From an archaeon (lineage in GTDB: Archaea > Nanobdellota > Nanobdellia > Woesearchaeales > GW2011-AR9), in NCBI GenBank assembly GCA_018696395.1, contig JABHQR010000017.1, positions 39,094 through 103,093 on the forward strand: DNA of 64,000 nt. The letters are read 5' to 3'. The position numbers and the translations under genes are program-made. The notes beneath the pieces were generated by a model. The model did no database searches. It saw only the letters and a program-made list of their open reading frames with translations, and was not told the DNA's origin. The first letter of the stretch is position 1; every line of letters begins with the position of its first letter. This document shows positions 4,601 through 40,905 of this stretch, one piece after another.

Positions 4601-5477
4601 AAAGATTGCTTATTGTGGTTATCATGGTGGGAGTGCTGATTGGTTTGGCATAACAACTGCATTGAATAAAGGTGTTCCAAAATGTATGGGTGATTTAATA
4701 ATTGGTTTTGAATATAATAATATAAAGTCTTTAGAAAATATTTTTGCTGAACATCAAGGAGAAATTGCTACAGTTATCATGGAACCAGTTGTGTTTGAAG
4801 AGCCAAAAGATGATTTTTTACAAAAAGTGAAAGATTTAGCTCATAAACATGGTGCAGTATTAATATTTGATGAAATGGTAACTGGTTTTCGAGTATCTTT
4901 AGGTGGAGCTCAAGAATATTATAATGTGACCCCTGATTTAGCAACATTTGGTAAGGGTGTGGCGAATGGAATGCCTTTATCAATCCTATGTGGAAAAAAG
5001 GAGATTATGGAAGAATGTGAAAATGTTTTCTTTTCAATGTCTTTTGGTGGGGAAGTATGTTCATTAGCAGCTGCTAAAACTACAATTCAGGAGTTTAAAG
5101 AAAAAAATGTTATTGCCCATTGTTGGAAACAAGGGAAAAAAATAAAAGAAAAATATAACCAATTATCTAAGCAATATGGTCTTTATTCATTCACTAAATG
5201 TATCGGTTTAGATGTTCATAATAAGTTTGAGTTTAATGATAAAGATGGGGATGAATGGTATGATTTAAAAAGTTTATTTATTCAAGAGACTGCTAAAATG
5301 GGTATTTTATGCAGCACTGTTAATAATTTTTGTTTATCACATTCTGATGAAGATATAAATAAAACATTAAATGCATTTGAAATAATTTTTAAAATAATGA
5401 AAGATGGAATAGGGAATAATAACATTAAAGAATTATTAGAAGGGATACCAGTTAGTCCCGTATTTAGGAAAACTTAA
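1677..5477 (+). CDS. Four-domain fusion: GNAT acetyltransferase + SpsF/PseF-like cytidylyltransferase + Gfo/Idh/MocA oxidoreductase + class III (GSA-type) PLP aminotransferase
   Basis: GNAT: HIGNIKL...GKGIATEA. SpsF: IIQARMGASRLPNKVL, RVTADCPFIDP, RWTLDTPED. Oxidoreductase: LIVGCGNIG, IEKP, GFNLRF, GGGAILD. Aminotransferase: RFGKNGTD, LIFDEMVTGFR, TFGKGVANG. Confidence 0.88.
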   Translation: MNNYNLLSNQKLMDDGNLIYLRNLTDLDVTEEYCKWLNDPEVNLYLETRKVTIEELIKYVNDKNNNLNCLFLGIYCKSNDKHIGNIKLEPIDFVNKTATLGILIGNKDYWGKGIATEATKLISDYAFNKLGLIEVNLGVISENKAAIRVYEKVGFKVFDIKKNHIIHNNQNYDQVMMKINPKNEKITAIIQARMGASRLPNKVLLPLVGKPVLWHIVNRLKQCKNIDKIVIATSNNEKDQAIEDFAKGESILFTRGDEMDLVSRFHHTCLEHNINTFVRVTADCPFIDPELVDNMIDYYLKNKNQYDLLSNVHPATYPDGLDLEIIPFEALKKMFLEVKDSFYRECFTTYLFTKSEYKSLNYPNKSDQSKMRWTLDTPEDYEFFKKVYGGLYKNNNISISNLINHEDNNLNNSGINNNVFLKKDIENFLYKNPEIEMINNRYTRNYSDQGRLKQKKMEEQEYKNILIVGCGNIGYKHLKNINSFFKGKISVCDNNEKMINEVRTIFPQVMCYQNLDVALEKEKPTHTIIATPNHLHISFAMKALQHTKNIFIEKPLSHNLEGVKEFLEAARKRNVKVIAGFNLRFHPFVIKLKEVIDNKQLGEIYSVNVNFGSYLPDRHPGRDYREDYVTKRSLGGGAILDVIHEIDYLSWIFGLPQKVFAFAEKRSNLEMETEDSADILLRLNQKSVINFHLDFLRRPYTRIVEVIGEKGTLIMDFAKNGDFELGEFKIFNPVKKEWEKTNHNFNHDQTYLLELSQFVNFDQSEDKISCRGGFAEKVLNVALAVKESAKCGKIIKIEENQNDFNKTSNYYNNIKIDSNCDDNINKNGNLLQIKETSKLKINKSKELFEEAQKLIPGQSQTLSKGYTQFVQGVSPIFVQKGKGSHVFDPDGNEFIDYILALGPITLGYNYPKTNFAIIKQLGEGITFSLPHPLEVELAKDIVETIPCAEMVRFGKNGTDVTSAAVKIARAYTKKEKIAYCGYHGGSADWFGITTALNKGVPKCMGDLIIGFEYNNIKSLENIFAEHQGEIATVIMEPVVFEEPKDDFLQKVKDLAHKHGAVLIFDEMVTGFRVSLGGAQEYYNVTPDLATFGKGVANGMPLSILCGKKEIMEECENVFFSMSFGGEVCSLAAAKTTIQEFKEKNVIAHCWKQGKKIKEKYNQLSKQYGLYSFTKCIGLDVHNKFEFNDKDGDEWYDLKSLFIQETAKMGILCSTVNNFCLSHSDEDINKTLNAFEIIFKIMKDGIGNNNIKELLEGIPVSPVFRKT

Positions 5478-27101: not shown

Positions 27102-27212
27102 CTTAAGGGAAAGAATTTATTTTTTACTTTTAAGTGTTATGAAATATTGTTATTGGATTAGAATTTAGTTTGTCTTGTTGATGTGCAATTTTAGCAAATA
27201 TATTCAAAATAT

Positions 27213-27228
27213 CCGAAACATTTAAATA
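27213..27228 (+). promoter_or_regulatory. BRE + TATA box of the AOR/NAD cluster
   Basis: CCGAAA (27213-18) followed by TTTAAATA (27221-28), in canonical archaeal arrangement. Confidence 0.65.
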
Positions 27229-27230
27229 TA

Positions 27231-27247
27231 AGTGTTACTTGTACACT
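27231..27247. promoter_or_regulatory. Putative NrtR operator 1
   Basis: Perfect inverted repeat AGTGT-TACTTGT-ACACT with a GT-N7-AC core, 2 bp downstream of the TATA box. Confidence 0.7.
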
Positions 27248-27317
27248 AACGTAAGGTGATAAAAACAAAGTGTTTAATTGATCTTTTCCACGAGAAGATT
27301 TTTTTAATCTCACACTT

Positions 27318-27334
27318 AGTGTAAAAATGACAAA
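27318..27334. promoter_or_regulatory. Putative NrtR operator 2
   Basis: AGTGT-AAAAATG-ACAAA has the same spacing as operator 1. It lies in the leader before the likely AOR start at 27357. Confidence 0.55.
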
Positions 27335-29168
27335 AACAAACCAAGAAGGCTTGAAAATGAAAAGAAAACAAATATCTAAAGAATTAAACATTAATTTAAA
27401 TTTAGAACAAGTGAATCTTAAGTTAAGGGAAGAATATAATCTTGAAGAAATAATTGGGGGATTTGGTCGAGCAGTACATAAATTAAATGACCACATTGAT
27501 TACAATCCTGGTCTAACTGATGCTTATGATCCTAATAATTTGATCTGTTTTGATATCGGTTTTTTGACTGGATCAAAAGTAATGACTTCTAAAAGAACTT
27601 ATGTAAGTAGTTTAAGTCCATTGAAAACTAGTAATGCTGGAACTAATGGAATTTATTATTCAACTGCAAGTGGGGGTTTTGGATCTGCATTAAGGGATTG
27701 TGATTTAGATGCAATAAACATTATTGGGAAATGTCAAAATCCTTCTTATTTAGTAATTGATTATTCAAGTGGAAAGTTAGAAACAAGTTTTCAAGATGCA
27801 GGAGATCTTATGGGAAATACAACTGACCAAAAGATATCTTCTCTTTCTGAAAAGTATGACAATGCTTCTTTTTTAGTAATCGGGCTTGCAGGTGAAAATT
27901 TGGTAAGGTGTGCTAACATTGCTTTTAGCACTTCTGATCAATTGAGAAAAGGAACTAACCATATGAGATTTGCTGGTCGAGGAGGAATGGGGGCAGTAAT
28001 GGGTTCAAAGAATTTAGTTGCTATTGTAGTTAAAGGTGAACGAGAAGTAAGTAGGACACATTACAAATCTCAAAGTCTGGGTAATGATGTTAAAGAAATT
28101 AACAGAGAAATTGCTAGGGGTGAAGGAACTAGGAAATATCGGGAACTTGGTACTTTTTTTTCTAACATTGAAAGTTTAGAATATTTAAGTGCAGGAATTC
28201 ATCAAAATTTTAGTCAAGGTAATGATGTTAATACCAGGAATTTGTTTAGAGATTACTTAATACAAGATGGAATTGAAATTAAAGACAAAGGATGTCTTGG
28301 ATGTGGGATTAAATGTTGGAAAGAATTGTTTAAGGAAGGAAAAGTTTTAGGGAAATTAGATTATGAAAATGGTTCTTTGCTTGGGCCAAATTTAGGGATT
28401 AATGATGTGGAACAAATTCAACAATTAATAAATTTAACAGATGGTTATGGAATGGACGCTATGTCAACTGGTGTTTGTTTAGGTTATGAAATGGAAATTC
28501 AAGGGAAGTTTGGCAATTTTGAATTTGCTAAACAGATGATTGAGAAAATTGCATCTGGCGAACATGGTTTGAAAGAAGGTGTGAAAAGATATTCTGAATC
28601 AATAGGTCAAACTGAAAATGCAATGCATGTTAAAGGTGTTGAACTTGCGGCATATTTAGGGCAAGTAAATCCAGGATATGCTTTTGCAATTGCTGGTCCT
28701 CATACTTCTATGATGACTTATAATTCTTCTTGGAAACTAACTGCAAATAATTCAGTGGAGGAGTGGTCAGAAAATATAATTGATGGTGTTATACCAATTA
28801 TTTATGATATGAACGGGTTGTGTAAATTTTCAAAAGTAAGTTTAGGTGATGTTAGTAAACAATTAAATTTGCTTACTGGTGTTGAAACTTCATCTGATGA
28901 ATTGAAAAATTGTGCTAGGAAAGTAGCATTATTAGCAAGAAATATTGATTATAAATTGGGTTTCAATGAAAGTGACGACATTTTACCTGAAAGATGTTAT
29001 CAAGATTTAGAAATAAACGAACTTGGTGAACATTTCAATACTAAAGAATTTTTTGAAAGACTGAAACATTCAGTTTACAATTCTTATCATACTCTTGCAG
29101 GGGAATTTGGAATTAATTTAGTTAATGTAAATTATATGTTTGGATCAAAATTGATGGAGGTTGCTTAA
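27327..29168 (+). CDS. aor: Aldehyde:ferredoxin oxidoreductase family (W/Mo-pterin, 4Fe-4S)
   Basis: SPL...S..GG.FG, IGLAGEN, AGRGGMGAVMGSKNL, CLGCGIKC, GMDAMSTG, HVKG.E and GLCKF. Likely start is the ATG at 27357. Confidence 0.85.
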   Translation: MTKTNQEGLKMKRKQISKELNINLNLEQVNLKLREEYNLEEIIGGFGRAVHKLNDHIDYNPGLTDAYDPNNLICFDIGFLTGSKVMTSKRTYVSSLSPLKTSNAGTNGIYYSTASGGFGSALRDCDLDAINIIGKCQNPSYLVIDYSSGKLETSFQDAGDLMGNTTDQKISSLSEKYDNASFLVIGLAGENLVRCANIAFSTSDQLRKGTNHMRFAGRGGMGAVMGSKNLVAIVVKGEREVSRTHYKSQSLGNDVKEINREIARGEGTRKYRELGTFFSNIESLEYLSAGIHQNFSQGNDVNTRNLFRDYLIQDGIEIKDKGCLGCGIKCWKELFKEGKVLGKLDYENGSLLGPNLGINDVEQIQQLINLTDGYGMDAMSTGVCLGYEMEIQGKFGNFEFAKQMIEKIASGEHGLKEGVKRYSESIGQTENAMHVKGVELAAYLGQVNPGYAFAIAGPHTSMMTYNSSWKLTANNSVEEWSENIIDGVIPIIYDMNGLCKFSKVSLGDVSKQLNLLTGVETSSDELKNCARKVALLARNIDYKLGFNESDDILPERCYQDLEINELGEHFNTKEFFERLKHSVYNSYHTLAGEFGINLVNVNYMFGSKLMEVA

Positions 29169-30681
29169 AATGATTAATGAAGAAAATATCGGATCTGATA
29201 TAAGGAAACCAAATATGTTAGAATTTACTAAAGATTTAGCTTTAGCAGTTGCAGATTTTTATGAGTATTCTATGGCAGAAGCTAATATCCTTGAAGATAT
29301 TGTTGGTAAAGATACAGTATTTGATATGGTAGTTAGAAGGATGCCAACAAATAAAGTTGTTGGAAGATTTGAAAGAGATGGTGTTAAGTATGATGAATTA
29401 GAACAAAGAAAATATTTAATCAATGCTGGTTTAGAACAAGTTGCAGCATATTTTTTAGAAGCTAGGGGAACTGAAAAATTAAGAAATTATATGCAAGAAG
29501 TTCAAGGTGTTGAAAATACTACATTTTTAGATTGGGTAGAAAATATTTCTTTTCAAGGTGATGTTTATGCTATGCCAGAAGGTACTATATTCTTTGCGCA
29601 AGAACATCAATTAAGAGTTCATGAAAAATTTGAAGAAGCACAAGTGTTTGAAAGTTTATTACTTAATACAATCAATCCTCAAACTAATGTGGCAAGTACT
29701 GCAAATGATATTGCTCAAGTAGCTAATAAAATTTTACTTGAGGGGGGAAGTAGGAGAGCAACAAGTCCTCAAAGTTCGGTATTTAATTCTCGTGCAGCAA
29801 GAATTGGTGGTTTTACTGCAAGTTCTAATGTTGCATATGGGATGTTTTATCATGAAAAAGTGGGTGGTACGCATGGTCATTCTTATGTGATGTTACATCC
29901 AGATGAATACTCTTCATTTAAAGCTCAATCTGAATTATTTGGGAATAAAGTTTGTTTCTTATTAGATACTTACAATGTTGAAGAAGCTTTTGAAATATCA
30001 TTGAAAATTGTTGAAGAGGAAAATTTTGATAGTTTTGCATTTAGGATTGATAGTGGCGATTTATTACAACAAGCTAAATGGATTCATGATAAATTGCAAG
30101 AAAAAGGTTATGCTAGAGAAAGTTATGTTTTGGTAGCTTCAGATGATTTAACTGCGGGTAAGATTGATGTCTTGGAAAAAGAAAGAGCAGACATTGATAA
30201 ATATTTAGTTGGAACTTATGTTGTTAATCCACCTAAACCAGTACCAGGTGTTTTCAAATTAGCTGCTTACAAAAATGATAATAATAATCAAGAAGTAAGT
30301 AGTGATGAAGAAAATAATGGTTGGATTCTGAAAGGAAAGTTATCTGAAGAATTTAGTAAAGCCACATTACCTGGAATTAAACAAGTTTATCGTGTTGTTG
30401 GAGAAGATGGTTTTTACAAGAAGGATATCATTGCGTTTGAAGGGGAAGATTTAAGTGAATATTTAGATGAAAATGATACTGTTGAAGAATTACTTGTTTC
30501 AATAATTAAAGGAGGAAAACAAGTTTATAATTTTCCAACTATTAATGGAATTTCTCAACGAAGAGAAGAACAACTTTCTAGGTTTAATAATATAGGAGAT
30601 TATGAAATTTTAATCTCCTCGTTAGTGTTAAAAACACAACAACAAATCATGGAGGAACATGGTTTTTATCGGAGGAATTGA
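29161..30681 (+). CDS. pncB: Nicotinate phosphoribosyltransferase
   Basis: DFYEYSM, EGGSRR, SSNV..G, GGTHGHSYV (phospho-His region), LLDTY, RIDSGD and VGTY. Likely start is 29170. Confidence 0.85.
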   Translation: MLKMINEENIGSDIRKPNMLEFTKDLALAVADFYEYSMAEANILEDIVGKDTVFDMVVRRMPTNKVVGRFERDGVKYDELEQRKYLINAGLEQVAAYFLEARGTEKLRNYMQEVQGVENTTFLDWVENISFQGDVYAMPEGTIFFAQEHQLRVHEKFEEAQVFESLLLNTINPQTNVASTANDIAQVANKILLEGGSRRATSPQSSVFNSRAARIGGFTASSNVAYGMFYHEKVGGTHGHSYVMLHPDEYSSFKAQSELFGNKVCFLLDTYNVEEAFEISLKIVEEENFDSFAFRIDSGDLLQQAKWIHDKLQEKGYARESYVLVASDDLTAGKIDVLEKERADIDKYLVGTYVVNPPKPVPGVFKLAAYKNDNNNQEVSSDEENNGWILKGKLSEEFSKATLPGIKQVYRVVGEDGFYKKDIIAFEGEDLSEYLDENDTVEELLVSIIKGGKQVYNFPTINGISQRREEQLSRFNNIGDYEILISSLVLKTQQQIMEEHGFYRRN

Positions 30682-30683
30682 GA

Positions 30684-30818
30684 ATGAAAAATGTTGAGAA
30701 TGAAATTGTGAAAAAGTCAGTTTTGGTTTGTGAAAGTTTGGGAAAGATTAGTGGCAGTTATGGTGTTACTGAATTTTTTGTATTTTCAGATGGAATTGGT
30801 TTTGGAGACAGTTGGTGA
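30684..30818 (+). CDS. 44-aa small ORF of unknown function (not in ORF track)
   Basis: GGAGG at 30671-75 precedes the ATG. It reads MKNVENEIVKKSVLVCESLGKISGSYGVTEFFVFSDGIGFGDSW and fills the pncB-pncA gap. Confidence 0.5.
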   Translation: MKNVENEIVKKSVLVCESLGKISGSYGVTEFFVFSDGIGFGDSW

Positions 30819-31661
30819 TTGGAAAATAGGGGGATAAAGAAAATGAGAATATTTTACGATACCGATACACAAGTAGATTTTATGTCTGAAAATGGAGCTT
30901 TGTATGTCCCAGGGGCAGAAGAAATCAGGCTTTCTTTAAAAAAATTAACTCAGTATGCTAGAAATAATAACATTCCGATAATTGGTTCAGTGGACAGACA
31001 TTTTGGAACTGAGAAATACAAAGAAAAAGAATTAGAATTACAAAGGTGGGGTGGTCTTTTTCCTGATCATTGTATGGACGATACTGCAGGATTTGAAAAG
31101 ATATCTGAAACTTCTATAAGTCCTCTTTATTTTGATGTGCATGGTTCTTCACATCGTACTGATGACCTATACATCCCTTGTCTTAGGGAAGAAAATATCT
31201 CTTTTTCTAAATATATGATGAGGTATGAGTCAATAATCAGTCCGGACAAAATTGATTCTTTTTATCAAAATTTTACCACTGAAAAAAGAATCTCTTGGTG
31301 GCATTCAATATTATCTGGTATAAATCTTGAAAATATCACTTCAGCTTTAAATGAATTAAAACAAGAAAAATCAAAGGGTATTTATTTTGAAAAACAGTCT
31401 TATGATATTTTTTCTAATTCTCATTTAGATATTTTTCTTCATGAAGCAAAGGTTTCTGAAGCGATTGTTTATGGTGTGGCAACCGATTATTGTGTTAAGG
31501 CAGTAGTGTTAGGTATGCAAAAAAGAGAAATTCAAACTTATGTTGTTGAAGATGCAATCCAAGGTATTACTGAAGAATCTTCTGTGGCAGCAATTGAAGA
31601 AATGAAACTATCTGGGGCTAAAATTGTTTCTCTTGAACAAGTTCTGGGAGGTAAATTCTAG
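30819..31661 (+). CDS. pncA: Nicotinamidase/pyrazinamidase (isochorismatase family) with large insertion
   Basis: DTQVDF..GALYVPGA, D.H, FPDHC, FEK and GVATDYCV (catalytic Cys). Likely start is the ATG at 30843. Confidence 0.85.
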   Translation: MENRGIKKMRIFYDTDTQVDFMSENGALYVPGAEEIRLSLKKLTQYARNNNIPIIGSVDRHFGTEKYKEKELELQRWGGLFPDHCMDDTAGFEKISETSISPLYFDVHGSSHRTDDLYIPCLREENISFSKYMMRYESIISPDKIDSFYQNFTTEKRISWWHSILSGINLENITSALNELKQEKSKGIYFEKQSYDIFSNSHLDIFLHEAKVSEAIVYGVATDYCVKAVVLGMQKREIQTYVVEDAIQGITEESSVAAIEEMKLSGAKIVSLEQVLGGKF

Positions 31662-31678
31662 TTTGGAGGATAAATAAA

Positions 31679-32584
31679 ATGGCGGAAAGAAAAATAAAAT
31701 TGGCGAAAATGAACCCGGATTTAGTTAATAAGGAAATTGGAGATTTTGTTCTTGAAGATGTAACAAATAGAAAAGCAACTGGTTGTGTGATCGGTTTATC
31801 AGGTGGTGTTGATTCAACTGCTACTGCAGCAATTATCAAAAGTGCATTTGATAGATATAATCTGTTTAGTAATGGTCAGTCACTTGAATTAGTTGGTTAC
31901 ATATTACCTTCAAAAATTAATCATTACAAGGATACTGAAGATGGTGTTGATATTGCTAAACAGTTAGGTATTAGGTATGAAGTTCATAGTATTGAAGGGA
32001 TTGTTGAAGCACATAAGTTAACTAATCCTGAAGCTTTTGAATTTAATTATCATAAAGGGAATATGGTCTCAAGAATTAGGGCAAATATTCTCTCTACTAA
32101 ATCTGCAACTGAAAGAAAAATTTTAGCTGGTACTGGTAATCGTGACGAAGATTTTGGAATCGGTTATTACACTTTGTTTGGTGATGGGGCGGTACACTTA
32201 AGTCCAATAGGTAATTTACCAAAAAGGTTAGTTAGAGAAATAGCAGATTACCATGGTTTTTCTGATATTGCTAAAAAAATTCCTAGTGCTGGTCTTGAAC
32301 CAGGACAAACGGATTTTGGTGATTTGGGGTACAGTTATGATTTTGTGGAATTAGTAAGTGAAGGATTAATGCAGGGTTTTGAAAAAAAGGAACTTTATGG
32401 TCACAAACAAATAATTGGTCTTTCTCAAAAGGACATTGTTCAATATGCAAATTTGTATGGTTCTCCTAAATTAAGTAATTCTAAAGATATGATTGATGAC
32501 ATTTTGAGAAGGCATAACATTGCAATTGACAAAGCTAACTTAATTCATCCAAGGGCAGCACCTGTAACTTTGATTTACGAATGA
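31679..32584 (+). CDS. nadE: NH3-dependent NAD+ synthetase
   Basis: GLSGGVDS, GNMVSRIR, GTGNRDE, GYYTLFGDG, PSAGL and QTD. There is no nitrilase domain. Confidence 0.92.
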   Translation: MAERKIKLAKMNPDLVNKEIGDFVLEDVTNRKATGCVIGLSGGVDSTATAAIIKSAFDRYNLFSNGQSLELVGYILPSKINHYKDTEDGVDIAKQLGIRYEVHSIEGIVEAHKLTNPEAFEFNYHKGNMVSRIRANILSTKSATERKILAGTGNRDEDFGIGYYTLFGDGAVHLSPIGNLPKRLVREIADYHGFSDIAKKIPSAGLEPGQTDFGDLGYSYDFVELVSEGLMQGFEKKELYGHKQIIGLSQKDIVQYANLYGSPKLSNSKDMIDDILRRHNIAIDKANLIHPRAAPVTLIYE

Positions 32585-32607
32585 AATAATAATCTTAACT
32601 AAAATAA

Positions 32608-33105
32608 ATGAGGGTAAAAAAAATGAGTGAACAAAATAATGAAAGGCCGCAGAAAGTTTACAATGCAACCGATATGATTATTGAGTATTGTTCTAATAAT
32701 AAAGAGGGAATAGTGTTAATTGAACGAAAAAATCCACCTTTTGGTTATGCTTTACCTGGGGGCTTTTTAGAGAAACATCTTAGTTTAGGTGATAATGCAA
32801 GGAAAGAAACCAAAGAAGAGACTAATTTAGAATTTATTGTTGGAAATGAAGAGAAACCTTTCTTAGTTAAAGGTCAGCCAGATAGAGATCCGAGAGTTAG
32901 AGTTTTAAGTTTTGTTTATGTCGGTAAAGGTTATGGTGAATTGAGGGCAGGAGATGATGCTGCTAATGCACATCATGTCTCTTATGGTCAATTGAATGGG
33001 ATGTTAGGTAAAAGATTATTTGCATTTGATCATGAAGAAATTATTGTTCAATATCTTGAAAATGTTGGAAAATTGTACGATCTAAAAAAGGGTGAAATGA
33101 AATGA
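32608..33105 (+). CDS. Nudix hydrolase, ADP-ribose pyrophosphatase-like
   Basis: LIERKNPPFGYALPGG, ARKETKEETNL, PDRDPR, AGDDA and AFDH. Confidence 0.82.
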   Translation: MRVKKMSEQNNERPQKVYNATDMIIEYCSNNKEGIVLIERKNPPFGYALPGGFLEKHLSLGDNARKETKEETNLEFIVGNEEKPFLVKGQPDRDPRVRVLSFVYVGKGYGELRAGDDAANAHHVSYGQLNGMLGKRLFAFDHEEIIVQYLENVGKLYDLKKGEMK

Positions 33106-33860
33106 AAGATAATACTACCTTTTTCCCAGAAAGTTCACTTAAAAAAATTTTGGAAAATGATAAAGGGGGCTCTAGTAAAGTTGATAAAGATATATCTAGT
33201 AACAAAAAAAGATACTCCCGATTAGGTGTTATTGGACGTTTTCGTCCATTACATATTGGGGGGGCAATGATGTTAGAAACATTATGTCAACAATCAGGGT
33301 ATGTAATCATTGGAGTTGGCAGTGCTAACAAGTATAATATTCGTAACCCTTTTACTGCAGAAGAGTCTGTTAATATGATTGACAAATACTTATCTTCTCA
33401 AGGATATGATAATTATGAAATATTTACTATTAATGATTATGCTCATATTCCTGAATTTAGTGATGGGCAGAAATGGAAAAATGAAGTTAAGCAACATTTA
33501 GGTAAAATTGACGCTTTTATTACAGGAAATCCTTATTCTAAAAATTTGTTAGGGGCTGATTATAAAATAGTTCATCCTGGAGAATTAATCCCCCCTGAAA
33601 AATGGGTTTGGTTAAGGGGTACAATGGCTAGAGTTGAAATGGCTAAAAATTCTGATTTATGGGAAAAAATGGTCCCACAAGTTGTTGTTGAATATCTGTT
33701 AGAAAATAAACTAGTTGATAGATTTCAAAGGGAGTTCGGTTTACAAACTTTATCTTGTTTGGTTGAAGAAAGTAGTGGTGACTTGAGTCAGTCTTTAGGG
33801 GCTGGTTATGTTCAAAGAGAAAATTTGGAACAAGAGTATAAACATACTTTGGAAAAATAA
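33102..33860 (+). CDS. nadM: NadM-like NMN/NaMN adenylyltransferase (HxGH motif altered to HIGG)
   Basis: GRFRPLHIGG, IGVGSA, NPFTAEE, GNP and GT..R...W...VP matching archaeal NadM. Confidence 0.75.
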   Translation: MKDNTTFFPESSLKKILENDKGGSSKVDKDISSNKKRYSRLGVIGRFRPLHIGGAMMLETLCQQSGYVIIGVGSANKYNIRNPFTAEESVNMIDKYLSSQGYDNYEIFTINDYAHIPEFSDGQKWKNEVKQHLGKIDAFITGNPYSKNLLGADYKIVHPGELIPPEKWVWLRGTMARVEMAKNSDLWEKMVPQVVVEYLLENKLVDRFQREFGLQTLSCLVEESSGDLSQSLGAGYVQRENLEQEYKHTLEK

Positions 33861-33887
33861 ATCTTAAGAAAGTGAGGTAATAAAAAA

Positions 33888-34664
33888 ATGGTTCGTTTAG
33901 GGAGTTATGAAATCATTCGTCAGATTGGTGAAGGTGGATTTGGTAGGACTTATGAGGGTAGGCATGTCCTTAACAATAATATTAAAGCTTGTCTTAAACA
34001 GAACATTAACATTACTGATGAAGATGCAAAATTATTAATGCGGGAAGCAGAACTATTAACTAAAATTAGTCATTATTCTTTCCCAGCATTTAGAGATCTC
34101 TATCGTGTTGATGATGGGAGTATTGTACTTGCCATGGACTTTGCTGAAGGAAGAACTCTTGATAAAATTGTTGAAAAGCATAAAGGATTACACCCCGAAG
34201 AAGTTGCTTGGATTGCACAAAGGTCATTACAGGGATTATATTATTTGCACCATAAAGGGGTGATTCATGGTGATGTTAAACCACCTAATATGATGATTCA
34301 ACCTTGGGAACATAATGTTGTATTAGTTGATTTTGGTTTGTCAAGTATCAAACCTAAAAGTGATTCAAAAGCCGTAGGATACACTGAAGTTTTTGCTGCA
34401 CCTGAACTTCTTTCTGGGAAACCACCTTTGCCAGAATCTGATTTATATTCTTTAGGTTTAACTATGATATATGCTTGGGGTGGTGATCCAGTTGCTAAAA
34501 TTCATCCTCCTTATGTCCACAAATCTTTACAAAATTTTGTCAATGGTTTAGTACGATATAATGTTGCTGATAGGACTAATTGGGATAAGGAAGATTTAGT
34601 TAAAAAATTGTCAGATGCTAGATTAGAAGCGTTTGGTAGAAGGAGGTCAATAAAAAGTAAATGA
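33888..34664 (+). CDS. Hanks-type Ser/Thr protein kinase (catalytic domain only)
   Basis: IGEGGFG, CLK, E, IHGDVKPPN, DFG, APE and SDLYSLG. Confidence 0.92.
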   Translation: MVRLGSYEIIRQIGEGGFGRTYEGRHVLNNNIKACLKQNINITDEDAKLLMREAELLTKISHYSFPAFRDLYRVDDGSIVLAMDFAEGRTLDKIVEKHKGLHPEEVAWIAQRSLQGLYYLHHKGVIHGDVKPPNMMIQPWEHNVVLVDFGLSSIKPKSDSKAVGYTEVFAAPELLSGKPPLPESDLYSLGLTMIYAWGGDPVAKIHPPYVHKSLQNFVNGLVRYNVADRTNWDKEDLVKKLSDARLEAFGRRRSIKSK

Positions 34665-34766
34665 TTTGTTGGTTGTTGATTTTTAATTATTTGTTAAGTT
34701 AATAATTGAAAATATTAATTGAGATCTCGTATGAGTTAGCGAGAGCTATATGTAAATCAAATATAA

Positions 34767-35777
34767 ATGGGGGTACATAAAATGTACAGTTGGGGAGATG
34801 ATACAAGTACTTGGAAAAAACCAGGTTCTTATAACTATGGTTCGGCTAAAGCACCTTACCTTGATGACTTAAAAAAGGAGGCTGCAGATAAAGGGCCTCG
34901 AACATATGTTGGAACAAAAAAACCTAATTTGGATTTAGTTAATCCTAAAGGTAAAAAACTTTATTCTGAAAGTGAGAATCCAATAATTTTAGCAGTAGAT
35001 GGAACGGGTTCAATGCAATCTTGGCCAGGAGAAATATTTGATAGGTTACCTTTGTTTTACCAAACACTTTCAAAATATAAACCAGAAATTGAACTTAGTT
35101 TTTCAGTGATTGGTGATGCCATCTCTGATGATTGGCCATTGCAAATTTCTGCTTTTGGTAAAGGTGTGGAACTTGACGATTATCTGAAAGCGTTACATCC
35201 TGAAGGAAGAGGTGGTCCTGGAATTAGAGAAAGTTATGAATTATTTAGTTACTTTATTCATGAACATTGTAAAACTCCTAATGCAGTTTCACCTTTCTTG
35301 TTTATAATGGGCGATGAGAAATTTTACAAGAATGTTGATCCAAGCCAAGTAGAACAATTAATTGGGGATAAATTACAAGGTCCATTAGATTCTGCTAAGA
35401 CCATTCAAGAATTAACTCAACGTTATGATGTTTACTTGTTAAGGAAAAGTTATAGCCATGGTCTTGATAAAGAAATTGAAGGGCAATGGAAAGAAGTTCT
35501 TGGAGCACAGAAAGTAATTCCAATCTATGATCCAGAAAGAGTAGTTGATGTTGCTATGGGCCTTGTAGCAAAGAAGTGGGGTTATTTTGGAGATTTTGAA
35601 AACAATTTGGGTGCTAGGCAAGACTCAGTTGGAAAAGAATCTGTTATGATGTCTTTGAAAGCTGCACCTGGTGTTGATTTTGATAATTTAGAATCTACAA
35701 TGGTGGGAAGTTCAATTGTTGGTGATGCACCAAGTATGAAAAGTAAAAACTTAGCATCAATGGTAAGTAAACCTTAA
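34767..35777 (+). CDS. vWA-domain protein (MIDAS)
   Basis: AVDGTGSM (DxTxS MIDAS-like), IGDA..D.WPLQ, EGRGG...ESYEL and MGDE. Likely start is 34782. Confidence 0.7.
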   Translation: MGVHKMYSWGDDTSTWKKPGSYNYGSAKAPYLDDLKKEAADKGPRTYVGTKKPNLDLVNPKGKKLYSESENPIILAVDGTGSMQSWPGEIFDRLPLFYQTLSKYKPEIELSFSVIGDAISDDWPLQISAFGKGVELDDYLKALHPEGRGGPGIRESYELFSYFIHEHCKTPNAVSPFLFIMGDEKFYKNVDPSQVEQLIGDKLQGPLDSAKTIQELTQRYDVYLLRKSYSHGLDKEIEGQWKEVLGAQKVIPIYDPERVVDVAMGLVAKKWGYFGDFENNLGARQDSVGKESVMMSLKAAPGVDFDNLESTMVGSSIVGDAPSMKSKNLASMVSKP

Positions 35778-35833
35778 TTTTTTGTTTTGAAATTTGATTG
35801 AAATAAATAGAAAATAAATAGGAGGAAAATAAA

Positions 35834-36724
35834 ATGGGATTAAGCACTTCCGGAATGGATAAAGCGTATAAAACTAGTGGGGAAATTTTTGAACAGGTTA
35901 GTAAATTATACAAACCTGGTTTGGCTGAACAGTTAGGGGAAATTGAACCTGGTGAGGTTGTAGTAGTTCAAGGAACTTATGATCATGTAGAAAAATTGTT
36001 AGATACAATTAAAGTTCCTTATACTTCAATCACCAGTTCTGAAATATCAACACATAATGGTGGGAGAGTTATGTTTGTTAATTGTGCGTCATACAATTCT
36101 GTTGATGGCAAAACCAAAAATGCAATACATAATTATGTTGATGAAGGAGGAAGGTTGATCAGTACAGATTGGGCAGTTGGTTTGGTTGAAAAAGTTTTTC
36201 CAGGTAAGGTACAGAAAACTGCTAAAACAGGTGACGATGTTGTAGAAATTCAATGTTGTAGTGATTTAGGTAGAAAATTTGTTGGAATGAATTATGCACA
36301 ATGTAGGCCTAAATGGTGGCTGGAAGGAAGTAGTGACATTTATTCTATTGGTGAAGGTGTTACTGCTATAATCACTAGTTCTGAAATGGAAGAAAAGTAT
36401 GGTCAACCTTATGTTGCAGTTGGTTTTAAGGAAGGTAAAGGTGAAGTTATACATTTTATTAGCCACCTTGAATTGCAAAGAACTCATCTTAGAACTGAAG
36501 AAGACAAAGAAGGACTTGATACTTTTCTGGAAAAAATGAAAATTGAAAAAACTCCTGAAATGGATGATATGAAAGTTGCAGAATTAGAAGCTGCGTACAG
36601 TACCCTAAACACAGTTGCTTACTTGTGTTTAAGGTCTCCTGTGTTAGGTGGAGATATGAAAAGTGTGACTTTCAATTCGACAGCTGGGCCTGTTGGTGGA
36701 GCAGTGAGCAAAAAACTAGTCTGA
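35834..36724 (+). CDS. Uncharacterized protein, possible class I glutamine-amidotransferase-like fold
   Basis: VMFVNC, YVDEGGRLISTDWA and GKGEVIHFISHLE resemble GATase1-like topology. GGAGG SD upstream. Confidence 0.45.
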   Translation: MGLSTSGMDKAYKTSGEIFEQVSKLYKPGLAEQLGEIEPGEVVVVQGTYDHVEKLLDTIKVPYTSITSSEISTHNGGRVMFVNCASYNSVDGKTKNAIHNYVDEGGRLISTDWAVGLVEKVFPGKVQKTAKTGDDVVEIQCCSDLGRKFVGMNYAQCRPKWWLEGSSDIYSIGEGVTAIITSSEMEEKYGQPYVAVGFKEGKGEVIHFISHLELQRTHLRTEEDKEGLDTFLEKMKIEKTPEMDDMKVAELEAAYSTLNTVAYLCLRSPVLGGDMKSVTFNSTAGPVGGAVSKKLV

Positions 36725-36759
36725 ACATGCTAATATAAAAATAAATTGGATAAATAAAA

Positions 36760-37659
36760 ATGGTAAAAGCAATTGTAACAATTCCTCCTTATGCACCTTT
36801 TATTGAAGAAGTTGTAAATCATCCCATTGTAAGTGGGCTTAGGTTGAATACAGTTATGCCAACGAAAGGTAGTTTGGAGGAATTGTTAAAACAATTGCAA
36901 GATAAGGCTAATGGGAAAGATCTTTGGATTGATTTAAAGTATCGGCAGTTACGTGTAAAAAATTATGGTATTCCACCTTTTACCGAAATTGAATTAACTC
37001 ATAATATTGACGTGGATACTCCTGTGACTGCTTATTTTAGTGATGGGAAAGAACGTGCAAAGATTTTGGAAGTTGATGGTAATAGATTAATCATGCAAGA
37101 TGGGCCTAAACGAATGGTTGGTCCTGGTGAATCTATTAACATTGTTCATCCATCGCTTAATGTGGAAGGACATTTTACCAAAACTGACTTAAAATACATT
37201 GAAGCTGCTGAAAAAGTTGGGTTAAAAACATATATGTTATCTTTTGTGGAAAGTGTTGATGATGTGACTAGATTAAAAGAGAAAGTTTCAGATGCAATTA
37301 TTGTTGCTAAGATTGAATCTCAGAAAGGCATGGGTTATGTTCGTAATGTGTGGAAGGATGAATCTCGGTTAATGGCAGCAAGAGGTGATTTGTTTGTTGA
37401 ACTTGAAATGCCGCATTATGTAACAAAAGCAGTGGAAGAAATTGTTATGAAAGATAATAACGCAATTGTAGCTTCAAGAATCTTTCCATCTTTATCTTAT
37501 AGTTTGGAGCCTAGTTGTAATGATATCGGTGATGTTGATAACCTGATTAGGATGGGGTATCAGAATTTCATGTTAGGCGATGATATCTGTATGAAGAGGG
37601 ATTCAGTGATAAGTGGTCTTAACTTGCTGAAAGCGATAGCAGATAATTATTACAAGTGA
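36760..37659 (+). CDS. Divergent pyruvate-kinase-like protein (A+B domains only)
   Basis: RLN, DLK..QLR, LSFV, IVAKIES and MAARGDL.VE match the PK barrel. The C-domain is absent. Confidence 0.7.
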   Translation: MVKAIVTIPPYAPFIEEVVNHPIVSGLRLNTVMPTKGSLEELLKQLQDKANGKDLWIDLKYRQLRVKNYGIPPFTEIELTHNIDVDTPVTAYFSDGKERAKILEVDGNRLIMQDGPKRMVGPGESINIVHPSLNVEGHFTKTDLKYIEAAEKVGLKTYMLSFVESVDDVTRLKEKVSDAIIVAKIESQKGMGYVRNVWKDESRLMAARGDLFVELEMPHYVTKAVEEIVMKDNNAIVASRIFPSLSYSLEPSCNDIGDVDNLIRMGYQNFMLGDDICMKRDSVISGLNLLKAIADNYYK

Positions 37660-37781
37660 TTCATTTTTTATTTTTTTAATATTATTGTTTGCAATGATTA
37701 TAATTAAGGGTAGAAAATCAATTATAAGTTGAGCAACTAAAGAAAAAAAGTGATGGTGTTTAACAAGGAGGAGAAACTAAA

Positions 37782-38726
37782 ATGGGATTAGAAAATTTAG
37801 TTTTTGTACCAAGTAAAAGTAGGTATGAATTGGAACTTGAAGAAAAAGGATCAGATCATTTTGTTAAAAAGAGTTTTTCTTCTGAAGAGATTTATAATAA
37901 AATTGTAATAAGTCATCATAAACAGAAAGCTAATCTCTCTCGTGTTGTTAATTTGTTTGGTAGTGATGCTGTTGTTGATAGGTCTAAATTAAATAATGAT
38001 TTAGTAAGGGGTAAAGACTTGTTTATATTTTTAGGAGGAGATAATCATTTTACTTATTGTGCACAAAAAGTTTTATCTTATTTACAAAGAAATCCTCAAG
38101 AAAGGAAATATGTTGCAGGTGTGGTTCTTGATCCTGATAAAAGTACTGGAGCACTATTATCTTTTAGAGTTAATGAATTTTTAGAAGGTGTTACTTCTGA
38201 ACTAGCAAGTGGTTTTGGTGAAAATAAAGGTTTTGAAAATTATTCTGTTGAACAATGGACTACTTTGGAAGGTTCAGTTAAGTATAATAGTAGTGTCAGA
38301 AAATTATTGGTTCCAGCTATTGATGAATATTTTGTTGGAGAATCTGCTAGAATGCAAATGTCAAGAAATGTTGTTTATTTAGATGGTAAAGAAATATTTC
38401 CAGACAAATCTTCTGGTTTGTTGGTTGCAACAGGTTCAGGTTCAAATCAAGGGTCGTGGTATAATAATGTTTACGAAATGATTTTTAATGAAAGTGGAGA
38501 ATTTCCTAAAGGGTCTGAATCTGCTAAAATGATTTTAACTGAACATCGATCAAGAAGTGTTGCTAATCTTTACAAAGGTCAAATCTTGGAAATTCATTCT
38601 TATAATGATGATTATGGGATTATCTCTGCAGATTGTCATAAAGAACATACAACTACATTTCCAATGGGCGCTAAAGCAGAAATTAAAGTTAGTGATTTAA
38701 AGTTAAGGGTGTTGGTTGGTTTTTGA
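37782..38726 (+). CDS. nadK: NAD kinase family protein, NADK2-like
   Basis: LGGDN, GV..DP..S.G.L, AIDEYFVGE and KSSGLLVATGSGS..W. Confidence 0.72.
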   Translation: MGLENLVFVPSKSRYELELEEKGSDHFVKKSFSSEEIYNKIVISHHKQKANLSRVVNLFGSDAVVDRSKLNNDLVRGKDLFIFLGGDNHFTYCAQKVLSYLQRNPQERKYVAGVVLDPDKSTGALLSFRVNEFLEGVTSELASGFGENKGFENYSVEQWTTLEGSVKYNSSVRKLLVPAIDEYFVGESARMQMSRNVVYLDGKEIFPDKSSGLLVATGSGSNQGSWYNNVYEMIFNESGEFPKGSESAKMILTEHRSRSVANLYKGQILEIHSYNDDYGIISADCHKEHTTTFPMGAKAEIKVSDLKLRVLVGF

Positions 38727-38740
38727 AAGAAAATGTTTAG

Positions 38741-39052
38741 TTAAGTAGCGCCTAACCTTTTAGCCCAATATTCTTCAGTTTTTCTTTCATTATATCTGCA
38801 ACTTAAATCTCTGAATGTTTCATAACTGTCAATTGTTTGGAATAATTTTTCATAATCTTCTTTAGTAAGGTGTTCGTGGAATGCTGATGAGAAACATATG
38901 GAAAAGTTATGACCTAAGTAGTGCATATTGTATAATATTTTACCTGGTTTTGTTATTTCACTAAGATAATTTCTAATTTGTAACTTTCCTTCTGGAAGAG
39001 ATTTCTCTTTCATTAATTTTCCCTGAACTAAATCTTCAATTGATTTTGTCAT
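38741..39052 (-). CDS. Hypothetical protein (103 aa)
   Basis: ORF track entry. The ATG at 39052 lies about 24 nt after a TTTATAAA box on the minus strand. Confidence 0.55.
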   Translation of the reverse strand: MTKSIEDLVQGKLMKEKSLPEGKLQIRNYLSEITKPGKILYNMHYLGHNFSICFSSAFHEHLTKEDYEKLFQTIDSYETFRDLSCRYNERKTEEYWAKRLGAT

Positions 39053-39115
39053 GGAAGTTTTAAACACTGGATTATTTATAAATATTTATGACTAAGATAT
39101 TTTAAGTAAAAAAAT

Positions 39116-39802
39116 TTAGAAATCTGGTTTCCATTCACTTTTGTCGTTTCTTTGACGTGTGAATGAGTACAATGCTGCGGGTCGATGAGGACCTTTTTTC
39201 TTTTTATGTAAATCTTTAAGTATGTGTAATTCAGAAATTTTTTTTCTAAAGTTACGTTTGTCTAATTCTGTACCTAAAATAACTTCATAAGCTCTTTGAA
39301 GTTCTGTAAGTGTAAATTCTTTTGACATTAATTGAAATGCAAAGTCACTCTCTTGAACTTTTTTACGTAATCTGTGGATAGAATATTCAATAATTCTTTT
39401 GTGATCGAAAGCAATTTCTGGTAAATTGTAAACTGAATGCCAAGTGAATAAGTTACCCTCCTGAAAATCAATTTTGTTGGAATCAATAAGCCCATAATAT
39501 ACGATTGTAACTGTTCTTATTCTGGTATCTCTTTTCAAATTTTGTCCAAAAGTATAAAGTTGTTCTAAGAAAACTTCTCCAGGATTAATTTTACCTTTTA
39601 ATTTCAATGCTATTCTAGCCGTATCTTCAATTTTTTCATTATAACGTACAAATCTTCCAGGTAAAGCATATTTTCCTAAGTAAGGGTTATCTTCTCTTTT
39701 AATCAAACCAACTTTAATATCATCATTCTTAATTGTAAATAGAATTACGTCTACTGCTAATCCTGGTTTATTATACTTGTCAAGGTCATCTTTTGAAGTC
39801 AT
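39116..39802 (-). CDS. nrtR: NrtR-family ADP-ribose-sensing transcriptional repressor (degenerate Nudix + winged HTH)
   Basis: AVDVILF, ALPG.FV, LEQLYTFG...RD.R, AFDH, FTL.ELQ..YE.ILG..LDKRNFRKK and RPA.LY. The Nudix Glu residues are lost (ARIALKLKG). Confidence 0.9.
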   Translation of the reverse strand: MTSKDDLDKYNKPGLAVDVILFTIKNDDIKVGLIKREDNPYLGKYALPGRFVRYNEKIEDTARIALKLKGKINPGEVFLEQLYTFGQNLKRDTRIRTVTIVYYGLIDSNKIDFQEGNLFTWHSVYNLPEIAFDHKRIIEYSIHRLRKKVQESDFAFQLMSKEFTLTELQRAYEVILGTELDKRNFRKKISELHILKDLHKKKKGPHRPAALYSFTRQRNDKSEWKPDF

Positions 39803-39836
39803 AGTGTTAAACTAACAATATTTTAAATTATATAAA
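39801..39836 (-). promoter_or_regulatory. nrtR promoter with putative autoregulatory operator 3
   Basis: ATAGTGT-TAAACTA-ACAATAT (39801-21) abuts the start codon. A minus-strand TTTATATA box lies at 39829-36, about 27 nt upstream of the ATG. Confidence 0.68.
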
Positions 39837-40789: not shown

Positions 40790-40905
40790 GGTGGACAGCT
40801 TACTGCCGTTCCCATATAAAATACGGTACAGGACAATACGTAAGCGCCTTTAACATCTGTGTTCGAAAAGGGAACAGGTGAACCACGCCACTCTGGCCGT
40901 CCGAA
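40790..40905 (-). rRNA. rrf: 5S rRNA (solitary)
   Basis: Minus strand GGACGGCCAGAGTGG...CACCTGTTCCCTTTTCGAACACAGATGTTAA...GGGAAC...GCTGTCC. Helix I GGACGGC/GCTGTCC closes it, with a TTTATAAA box upstream and a T-tract downstream. Confidence 0.9.

What the first reader, a model, noticed from the sequence alone, without database searches (positions are those of the whole stretch)
27213..39836. Bacterial-type NrtR operators wired into archaeal TATA promoters (three sites)
Seen: AGTGT-N7-ACACT (27231-47, perfect), AGTGT-N7-ACAAA (27318-34) and ATAGTGT-N7-ACAATAT (39801-21). Site 1 starts 2 bp after TTTAAATA. Site 3 lies between the nrtR TATA box and its start codon. Established: NrtR boxes share a GT-N7-AC palindromic core and NrtR is usually autoregulated, described mainly in bacteria. 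Inference: NrtR represses the archaeal pre-initiation complex at both promoters, which defines the regulon from sequence alone.
Basis: partly seen in the sequence, partly recalled or inferred. Interest (0 to 1): 0.75.

Follow-up and report, generated by a model that had tools for sequence, protein, structure and literature searches.

The report
NrtR NAD regulon in DPANN archaeon
A small uncultivated archaeon (Woesearchaeota-like) carries a regulator of the NrtR type, so far described only in bacteria, whose 21-bp binding sites sit directly against the TATA boxes of its NAD-vitamin salvage operon and of its own gene; the layout is conserved in more than a dozen related archaeal genomes, so it is very probably a real repressor circuit.

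Summary
The window is from a DPANN archaeon (intron-bearing tRNAs, 30% G+C, closest proteins from Woesearchaeota/Nanoarchaeota MAGs). Gene 39116-39802(-) is a full-length NrtR-family protein with a dead Nudix box and the ADP-ribose-contact residues of Shewanella NrtR. The loose pattern (up to 2 mismatches) occurs at background frequency, so S2 and S3 are not convincing alone; comparative evidence is. A PWM trained only on bacterial relatives' sites finds 23 hits in 238 kb of archaeal DNA (about 2 expected), nearly all intergenic and upstream of pncB, pncA, nadE, nadA, a nadB-like gene or nrtR. Strong operators abut a BRE/TTTAWATA promoter (gap 0-4 bp). The nrtR operator is anchored on its ATG (ACACTATG). 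Where a long leader exists, a weaker O2 (TTAGTGTAAAAAnnACAA) precedes the first gene. S1, S3 and S2 are these three classes. Corrections: the AFOR-like gene starts at 27357, not 27327; S2 has no clear TATA; a probable fourth site lies at 30622-30642. Most likely mechanism: ADP-ribose-relieved occlusion of the TATA-to-start spacer. Verdict: supported; a new, archaeal member of a known regulator family, not found in the searched literature.

The parts
27213..27219 (+). BRE-like element CCGAAAC of promoter P1
   Evidence: Directly upstream of the TATA box. The same c(c/g)gaaa(c/t/g) element is conserved in L082, L004, L017, L087 and L089.
27221..27228 (+). TATA box TTTAAATA of promoter P1 (NAD operon)
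   Evidence: TTTAWATA is found 0-4 bp upstream of the strong operator in 15 promoters of related archaea. The same octamer lies about 25 nt upstream of gene 20708.
27229..27249 (+).
   Evidence: Perfect AGTGT-N7-ACACT. It scores 19.4 bits with a PWM from other genomes, above all 100 random sequences. Homologous position in L082, L001 and L031.
27250..27315 (+). Non-conserved leader between O1 and O2 (contains a hairpin plus T7 at ~27281-27306 that is not significant)
   Evidence: Fold z = -0.44; no Rfam match; not conserved in the 4-genome alignment; no conserved small ORF.
27316..27336 (+).
   Evidence: Second-best hit in the window with the O2-class PWM from other genomes (19.4 bits). Same class and position in L082, L001, L031, L087, L037 and L004.
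27345..27349 (+). Shine-Dalgarno-like GAAGG
   Evidence: Relatives have GGAGGTG or AGGAGG at the same place.
27357..29168 (+). Aldehyde:ferredoxin-oxidoreductase-like gene, first gene of the unit (start revised from 27327)
   Evidence: Pfam AFOR_N/AFOR_C 1e-44. The orthologue's N-terminus aligns to ATG 27357. The orthologue in L081 has no operator.
29161..30681 (+). pncB, nicotinate phosphoribosyltransferase
   Evidence: Pfam; NCBIfam 1.7e-84.
30622..30642 (+). Probable fourth operator (O2 class), TTAGTGTTAAAAACACAACAA, inside the 3' end of pncB and 201 nt upstream of pncA
   Evidence: Best O2-class hit in the window: 22.1 bits against a random 95th percentile of 18.6; 12.5 bits with the general PWM. 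It is not homologous to L031's pncA operator.
30843..31661 (+). pncA, nicotinamidase (isochorismatase family)
   Evidence: Start set at ATG 30843 from the sequence.
31679..32584 (+). nadE, NAD synthetase
   Evidence: Pfam NAD_synthase 4e-45.
32608..33105 (+). Nudix hydrolase (ADP-ribose pyrophosphatase-like)
   Evidence: matches the Nudix half of NadM-Nudix fusions.
33102..33860 (+). nadM, archaeal-type NMN adenylyltransferase
   Evidence: NCBIfam PRK01153 2e-24 and TIGR01527 4e-21, both below their cut-offs.
39116..39802 (-). nrtR: degenerate Nudix domain plus NrtR winged-helix domain
39801..39821 (-).
   Evidence: The ATG-anchored ACACTA(T/A) half-site is conserved in the window plus L082, L001, L010, L011, L022, L037 and L084; L031 has the variant ACAGTATG. 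Second-best nrtR-class hit in the window.
39829..39836 (-). TATA box TTTATATA of the nrtR promoter (leaderless mRNA predicted)
   Evidence: The TATA centre is about 30 nt from the ATG.

Best explanation
The window encodes an NrtR-family repressor (39116-39802, minus strand) and its regulon in a DPANN (Woesearchaeota-like) archaeon. An NrtR dimer binds 21-bp palindromes of consensus TTAGTGTAT-N3-ATACACTAA. O1 (27229-27249) abuts the TATA box of the promoter of an AFOR-like/pncB/pncA/nadE/nudix/nadM operon and fills the TATA-to-TSS spacer. O3 (39801-39821) covers the TSS and start codon of the leaderless nrtR mRNA. O2 (27316-27336) is a weaker box just upstream of the first gene's ribosome-binding site. 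Bound NrtR most likely prevents TBP/TFB from recruiting RNA polymerase (O1, O3). O2 adds a roadblock, cooperates with O1, or controls a weak second promoter. ADP-ribose, a breakdown product of NAD, most likely binds the catalytically dead Nudix domain and releases the protein from DNA, so that NAD consumption induces salvage. Shown here: protein family, site positions, their conservation and their association with NAD genes. Inferred: binding, direction of regulation and effector.
For: Protein: NrtR_WHD 1.7e-25. Full-length matches to AraR (5bs6, 7e-34) and Shewanella NrtR (3gz5, 2e-26). NCBIfam ADPR-responsive repressor model 5.5e-41. The Nudix box is degenerate (RIALKL). SoNrtR's ADPR contacts are kept: Arg41, Lys76 and Arg98 correspond to R36, K69 and R94, all invariant in the family alignment.

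Sites: a PWM trained only on bacterial relatives' sites gives 23 hits of at least 12 bits in 238 kb of archaeal DNA against 2.0 in random sequence; 20 of 23 lie outside long ORFs (P = 1e-14).

Targets in relatives are nadA, a nadB-like gene, pncB, pncA, Gln-nadE and nrtR.

Geometry: O1-type boxes lie 0-4 bp from TTTAWATA, with a BRE-like cgaaac, in 15 promoters. nrtR boxes are anchored to the ATG in 9 genomes.

The four-genome alignment conserves only BRE/TATA, O1 and O2.

Bacterial relatives carry the same motif in the -35/-10 spacer of sigma-70-like promoters.

Published NrtR biology: 21-bp palindrome with a GT-N7-AC core and ADPR as anti-repressor (PMC2330246); autorepression (PMC6800001).
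Against: There is no experimental binding or transcript data, and TSS positions are inferred from TATA spacing only. S2 and S3 are not significant window-wide with the general PWM, and the loose pattern is at background. O2 has no clear TATA, and the O1-O2 spacing varies (77-94 bp, and 239 bp in L087), so its mechanism is open. The closest solved structure is the arabinose sensor AraR, and one NrtR relative (NdnR) responds to NAD (PMC4666351), so the effector is not certain. The protein scores below the NCBIfam equivalog cut-off (140.6 against 400 bits). The AFOR-like first gene is not a regulon member elsewhere.
Confidence: 0.8

Rival explanations
1. Only S1 (and perhaps S3) is a real operator. 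S2 and the 30622 site are chance matches favoured by the A-rich composition of leaders in a 30% G+C genome.
For: The loose pattern is at background. S2 ranks 8th, at 10.1 bits, with the general PWM. The O2-class PWM rewards an A-rich spacer, and a random sequence reached 22.2 bits once in 60. The 30622 site lies in coding DNA and is not conserved in L031.
Against: O2-type boxes with an intact TTAGTGT half recur at the same position (11-20 nt before the ATG) in L082, L001, L031, L087, L037 and L004. S2 aligns with the L082 and L031 O2 boxes. TTAGTGT occurs only twice in intergenic DNA of the window, both copies here. The two best O2-class hits both fall in the NAD operon, in operon orientation.
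Confidence: 0.15
2. The boxes are NrtR sites, but O2 marks a second, operator-embedded promoter (its A-rich spacer TAAAAAWA acting as a TATA box), so the operon has two NrtR-controlled promoters rather than one promoter plus a roadblock.
For: The O2 spacer is unusually conserved as an A-tract. The distance from the O2 centre to the ATG is 26-27 nt in L082, L031 and L037, 23 nt in L004, 22 nt in L001 and 31 nt in the window, i.e. near the archaeal TATA-to-TSS distance in about half the cases (coordinates). T-rich TTTTTTAATC or TTTTTATAATC precedes O2 in the window and L082.
Against: SD-like sequences lie between O2 and the ATG and would be unused on a leaderless transcript. The same spacing is explained by the room needed for an SD plus its spacer. 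L001 has no T-rich element. No transcript data exist.
Confidence: 0.2
3. The palindromes are recognised by another regulator, or NrtR acts as an activator in archaea.
For: No binding data exist. Other regulators lie near nrtR in some relatives (a TrmB-family gene in L088).
Against: The motif co-occurs with nrtR in every locus examined and sits on nrtR's own start codon. The same motif accompanies the bacterial homologues. A position between the TATA box and the TSS is that of archaeal repressors; activators bind upstream of the BRE (established knowledge).
Confidence: 0.04

Closest known systems
Bacterial NrtR regulons of Cyanobacteria, Pirellula and Chloroflexi (Rodionov et al. 2008, PMC2330246)
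   Same: Nudix-like domain plus winged-helix regulator. 21-bp palindrome with a GT-N7-AC core. Target genes pncB, pncA, nadE and nadA/B/C. nrtR clustered with its targets. Degenerate Nudix signature. The archaeal protein is 40-50% identical to members from Melainabacteria, Blastocatellia, Chloroflexi, Planctomycetes and CPR, whose own promoters carry the same TTAGTGT-N7-ACACTAA box.
   Different: The host is an archaeon. The operator is placed against a BRE/TATA promoter and over the start of leaderless mRNAs, instead of in a sigma-70 -35/-10 spacer. The target is a TBP/TFB/RNAP pre-initiation complex.
Shewanella oneidensis NrtR (PDB 3GZ5/3GZ6/3GZ8)
   Same: Full-length alignment at 2e-26. ADP-ribose-contacting Arg41, Lys76 and Arg98 are conserved.
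   Different: Different regulon (prs-nadV). Low sequence identity. N-terminal arm residue Tyr10 is not alignable.
Bacteroides thetaiotaomicron AraR (PDB 5BS6, 5DEQ)
   Same: Best-scoring solved relative (7e-34), with the same two-domain fold and the DKRNFRK DNA-binding motif.
   Different: AraR senses L-arabinose and has Phe36, Leu67 and Gly89 filling the nucleotide pocket. The archaeal protein has D38, K69 and R94 there, like SoNrtR. AraR's regulon is pentose use, not NAD.
Archaeal repressors acting at the core promoter (e.g. MDR1, LrpA, Phr, TrmB; from general knowledge)
   Same: A bacterial-type wHTH/HTH protein binding at or just downstream of the TATA box to block RNA polymerase or TBP/TFB recruitment.
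   Different: Unrelated protein families and effectors. None has a Nudix sensor domain or controls NAD metabolism.

Membership tests
[quoted passage not shown] | N-terminal Nudix-like domain fused to a C-terminal NrtR-type winged-helix DNA-binding domain | tested here: met
   Pfam NrtR_WHD 1.7e-25, residues 155-214. Full-length alignments to 5bs6 and 3gz5 covering residues 13-217. NCBIfam NF050029 matches residues 6-218.
[quoted passage not shown] | Nudix signature GX5EX7REUXEEXGU perturbed in most (non-catalytic) members | tested here: met
   G49-x5-N-x7-R-I-A-L-K-L-K-G: the catalytic REUxEE is replaced by RIALKL (alignment; criterion from PMC2330246).
[quoted passage not shown] | Cognate 21-bp palindromic operator with a GT-N7-AC core upstream of target genes | tested here: met
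   S1, S2 and S3. The profile is conserved in about 15 archaeal and several bacterial loci.
[quoted passage not shown] | Chromosomal clustering with, and regulation of, NAD biosynthesis or salvage genes | tested here: met
   The window has pncB-pncA-nadE-nudix-nadM 5-12 kb from nrtR. In relatives nrtR is adjacent to these genes. Operators lie upstream of them. Regulation itself is inferred.
[quoted passage not shown] | Specific DNA binding relieved by ADP-ribose | not testable with these tools
   Indirect only: SoNrtR ADPR contacts R41, K76 and R98 are conserved as R36, K69 and R94. EMSA with and without ADPR is needed.
NCBIfam NF050029 'ADPR responsive transcriptional repressor' (equivalog) | Score at or above the curated cut-off of 400 bits | tested here: not met
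   140.6 bits, E = 5.5e-41. This is a family-level relative, not an equivalog of the curated clade.
AraR (arabinose-responsive NrtR subfamily) | Arabinose pocket residues (Phe36, Leu67, Gly89 filling the nucleotide cleft) and a pentose-utilisation regulon | tested here: not met
   The aligned residues are D38, K69 and R94. The regulon is NAD genes.
Archaeal TATA/BRE promoter | TTTAWATA box with an upstream purine-rich BRE about 26-27 nt before the TSS | tested here: inconclusive
   The sequence elements are present and conserved across genomes at a fixed distance from operators and leaderless ATGs. The TSS was not measured.

The most novel reading that the evidence does not exclude
The NrtR module (regulator, operator and NAD salvage genes) has crossed the bacteria-archaea boundary. 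The unchanged 21-bp operator was re-positioned from the sigma-70 -35/-10 spacer to the TATA-to-TSS spacer. In addition, the conserved O1/O2 pair (77-94 bp apart, with an A-tract O2 spacer) works by DNA looping, by an elongation roadblock or as an operator-embedded second promoter. None of these modes has been shown for NrtR, and they are barely explored in archaea. It would also be the first sequence-defined metabolic regulon for DPANN archaea.
Probability: 0.2. Interest if true: 0.65.

Novelty: new member of a known kind. Interest (0 to 1): 0.5.

Why it matters
DPANN archaea are uncultivated, genome-reduced and mostly symbiotic, and almost nothing is known about how they regulate genes. A conserved, sequence-defined NrtR regulon shows that many Woesearchaeota keep and tightly control NAD salvage (and, in relatives, de novo synthesis), probably by sensing ADP-ribose. 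It provides a set of ready-made, testable promoter-operator pairs for in vitro work with archaeal basal transcription factors. It is also a clean natural example of one operator-regulator pair working in both bacterial and archaeal promoter architectures. The conceptual step is modest, because the regulator family, the motif type and the mode of archaeal repression are all known.

Tried and rejected
(1) A riboswitch, attenuator or terminator in the leader between S1 and S2 (hairpin plus T7 at ~27281-27306). The fold z-score is -0.44, there is no Rfam hit at E up to 5, and the leader is not conserved. Rejected.

(2) A conserved leaderless small ORF or leader peptide after O1. ATGs follow O1 in several loci, but the ORFs differ in length and sequence and are absent from the window and L001. 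Rejected.

(3) The PWM hit at 816-836 (TAATTGTGATTTTTACAATAA). It lies in a 33-bp gap between hisH-like and hisF-like genes of a sugar-modification operon, with no TATA box and no NAD link. Treated as chance.

(4) The AFOR-like gene as a conserved regulon member. The only orthologue found (L081, 44% identity) has a plain TATA promoter without an operator. The first gene after O1/O2 varies between genomes: a radical-SAM-like gene, small ORFs, or pncB itself.

(5) Homology of the 30622 site with L031's pncA operator. They are not homologous. The homologous position (30704-30724) is a decayed remnant.

(6) ATG 27327 as the start codon. Rejected in favour of 27357.

(7) Direction of inter-domain transfer. 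A rough NJ tree shows a large DPANN clade plus other Woesearchaeota sequences interleaved with bacteria. This is not adequate to decide direction.

(8) Huang et al. 2009 (the SoNrtR structure paper) was not available. The residue information was taken from PMC4666351 instead.

Full report
OBSERVATION.
- S1 is a perfect AGTGT-N7-ACACT at 27231-27247. TTTAAATA lies at 27221-27228.
- S2 is AGTGT-N7-ACAAA at 27318-27334.
- S3 is ATAGTGT-N7-ACAATAT at 39801-39821. It lies between a minus-strand TTTATATA (39836..39829) and the ATG of the minus-strand gene 39116-39802.

The statistics are mixed. The 17-mer with up to 2 mismatches is at background, with 20 found against 23.5 expected. Only the perfect copy is rare, with 0.056 expected. 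So S2 and S3 cannot be accepted on pattern matching alone.

ORGANISM AND GENES. Two tRNAs carry introns, there is a stand-alone 5S rRNA, and G+C is about 30%. The closest homologues of the regulator are from Woesearchaeota/Nanoarchaeota MAGs. The window is therefore from a DPANN archaeon.

Gene 39116-39802(-) has the NrtR winged-helix domain (1.7e-25). It aligns over its full length to solved AraR (7e-34) and Shewanella NrtR (2e-26). It matches NCBIfam's ADPR-responsive repressor model (5.5e-41, below the equivalog cut-off).

Its Nudix box is degenerate, with RIALKL in place of REUxEE. It keeps the ADP-ribose contacts of SoNrtR: Arg41, Lys76 and Arg98 correspond to R36, K69 and R94, all invariant in a 28-sequence alignment. 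AraR has Leu and Gly at the last two positions, and Phe where this protein has D38 (SoNrtR Asn43).

Downstream of S1/S2 lie, in order, an AFOR-like gene, pncB, pncA, nadE, a Nudix hydrolase and an archaeal-type NMN adenylyltransferase.

COMPARATIVE TEST. I collected about 15 archaeal loci encoding relatives of this NrtR, plus about 70 bacterial ones.

Upstream of nrtR, 8 of the 9 archaeal loci in the first set carry a box ending on the start codon (xxTTGT/GTGT-N7-ACACTATG), downstream of a TATA-like element. This is the same layout as S3. Several bacterial relatives carry TTAGTGT-N7-ACACTAA next to a TTGACA -35 box.

A PWM trained only on those bacterial sites finds 23 hits of at least 12 bits in 238 kb of archaeal DNA, against 2.0 in random sequence. 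Twenty of the 23 lie outside long ORFs (P = 1e-14). Two of the three 'coding' hits are in fact intergenic, masked only by spurious ORFs.

The genes behind the strong hits are nadA (L004, L011), a nadB-like FAD oxidoreductase (L004, L017), pncB (L001, L010, L089), pncA (L031, L089), Gln-dependent nadE (L031) and nrtR itself. This is a coherent NAD regulon. It resembles the published bacterial NrtR regulons of Cyanobacteria, Pirellula and Chloroflexi (PMC2330246).

ARCHITECTURE. Three classes of site recur.

(i) O1 is a strong, near-perfect palindrome lying 0-4 bp after TTTAWATA, usually preceded by a BRE-like c(c/g)gaaa(c/g). Where the gene follows directly (nadA in L004 and L011, pncB in L010), the 21-bp box exactly fills the TATA-to-ATG spacer, which implies leaderless mRNAs. 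The window's S1 is an O1: CCGAAAC-A-TTTAAATA-TAAGTGT.

(ii) The nrtR box is anchored on the ATG, with a variable gap (0-14 bp) to the TATA box. S3 is one of these.

(iii) O2 (TTAGTGTAAAAAnnACAAT) has an intact left half and a degenerate right half. It lies 11-20 nt before the ATG, with an SD-like sequence in between. It appears when a 65-240 nt leader separates O1 from the first gene (window, L082, L001, L031, L087, L037). S2 is an O2.

A four-genome alignment conserves BRE/TATA, O1 and O2 but not the leader. Class-specific PWMs built only from other genomes rank S2 second in the whole window (19.4 bits; 95th percentile of the random maximum 18.6). They rank S3 second, behind S1. TTAGTGT occurs only twice in the window's 5.3 kb of intergenic DNA, both times in this promoter region.

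CORRECTIONS AND ADDITIONS.
- The AFOR-like gene most likely starts at ATG 27357, not 27327. The orthologue's N-terminus aligns there, and the 27327 ATG is simply part of the O2 spacer.
- S2 has no clear TATA box of its own.
It lies inside the 3' end of pncB, 201 nt upstream of pncA. It is a probable but unproven fourth operator. It is not homologous to L031's pncA operator, whose counterpart in the window (30704-30724) has decayed.
- The AFOR-like gene is not a general regulon member. The first gene behind O1/O2 differs between genomes.

MECHANISM. Shown: the family of the protein, and the positions, conservation and gene associations of the boxes.

Inferred from established NrtR biology (PMC2330246, PMC6800001, PMC4666351) and from the known behaviour of archaeal core-promoter repressors: dimeric NrtR binds O1 and O3 and occludes the TATA-to-TSS segment, so TBP/TFB cannot recruit RNA polymerase, or cannot bind at all at O1, which abuts the TATA box. 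ADP-ribose, produced when NAD is consumed, binds the dead Nudix domain and releases the repressor, which induces salvage and nrtR itself.

O2 may act as a roadblock, may cooperate with O1 (centre-to-centre 87 bp in the window; 85, 77 and 94 bp in L082, L001 and L031; 239 bp in L087), or may control a weak second promoter. These options cannot be separated without transcript data.

KNOWN OR NEW. The family, the motif type, autoregulation and the effector are textbook for bacteria. Bacterial-type regulators on archaeal TATA promoters are the norm. In the searchable literature NrtR is described only in bacteria. No paper links it with DPANN or Woesearchaeota. A 2023 study of Sulfolobus Nudix proteins explicitly found no HTH-fused member (PMC10311068). 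The library is incomplete, so prior mention elsewhere cannot be excluded. I file this as a new (archaeal) member of a known kind.

The same operator is used in the -35/-10 spacer of bacterial relatives and in the TATA-to-TSS spacer here. With the interleaving of archaeal and bacterial sequences in a rough tree, this suggests transfer of the module between domains, but the direction is unresolved.

DEAD ENDS. These were a leader RNA structure, a leader peptide, the 816-836 hit, and AFOR as a conserved target.

Noticed in passing
window 33888-37659 (+); also L004, L011, L082, L087, L089: A Ser/Thr protein kinase, one or two proteins with no family match (34767-35777, 35834-36724) and a pyruvate-kinase-barrel-only protein (36760-37659) follow nadM in the same order in several Woesearchaeota. 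L004 has an O2-type NrtR box 12 nt upstream of the 34767 homologue. Their function and any link to NAD/ADP-ribose metabolism are unknown.
   Followed up: partly
window 37782-38726 (+): This 314-aa protein has no Pfam hit but a very weak NAD-kinase similarity (NCBIfam E = 0.0065, far below cut-off). Its homologues sit directly after nadA (L011) or the nadB-like gene (L017), and L086 has a bona fide NAD kinase in the cluster. It may be a divergent NAD kinase or another NAD-pathway enzyme.
   Followed up: partly
window 27357-29168 (+); L082 10826-11686; L031 10857-11285; L037 8784-9104: The first gene behind the O1/O2 promoter differs between genomes: AFOR-like here, radical-SAM-like in L082, and small unannotated ORFs in L031, L037 and L086. 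The promoter module is conserved while its first cargo gene is swapped.
   Followed up: partly
window 30595-30618 (+): A perfect 8-bp inverted repeat, GGAGATTA-N8-TAATCTCC, lies inside pncB, immediately upstream of the 30622 box and downstream of an AT-rich TTTAATAATATA. It could mark an internal promoter or terminator, or be coincidence.
   Followed up: no
window 30682-30842 (+): An unusually long (161 bp), G/T-rich spacer lies between pncB and pncA. It contains a decayed operator remnant (30704-30724), followed by about 120 bp absent from L031.
   Followed up: partly
window 1677-5477 (+): A 1266-aa single ORF fuses GNAT acetyltransferase, cytidylyltransferase, GFO/IDH/MocA oxidoreductase and class-III aminotransferase domains. 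It looks like a nonulosonic or amino-sugar pathway collapsed into one polypeptide, next to hisH/hisF-like genes.
   Followed up: no
window 40790-40904 (-), 49224-49296, 50495-50567, 50804-50926, 53617-53735: A stand-alone 5S rRNA lies between a type II pantothenate-kinase-like gene and a Nudix gene. There are two copies of tRNA-His(GTG). Two tRNAs of about 120 nt were found only by Rfam and presumably contain introns.
   Followed up: no
L084, L086, L088 and the P0004 locus: A HIT/DcpS_C-family gene is recurrently encoded just upstream of, and divergent from, nrtR in relatives. In the window a pantothenate-kinase-like gene occupies that position instead. HIT proteins act on nucleotide adducts, so a functional link to NAD/ADPR turnover is possible.
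   Followed up: no
L082, L086, L088, L089: Relatives' nrtR clusters also contain ADP-ribosyl-glycohydrolase, PRPP synthetase, an inosine-uridine-type nucleoside hydrolase, NAMPT and DUF1152. This suggests a wider ADP-ribose/NAD recycling module in Woesearchaeota than the window shows.
   Followed up: partly
L064 9539-10660 (+): A Methanosarcinales-labelled MAG encodes a 373-aa NrtR with an N-terminal extension of about 145 aa. A 12.4-bit box lies 3 bp upstream of its ATG. This hints that NrtR occurs outside DPANN, if the binning is correct.
   Followed up: no
P0101: A protein labelled as coming from an Acidobacteriota MAG nests inside the DPANN NrtR clade (59% identity). This is either a mis-binned contig or a recent transfer.
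   Followed up: no
window 27195-27212 (+) and L082 10670-10687: A CAAATATAT(T/G)C element upstream of the BRE is conserved between the window and L082. It may be an additional promoter or regulatory element.
   Followed up: no
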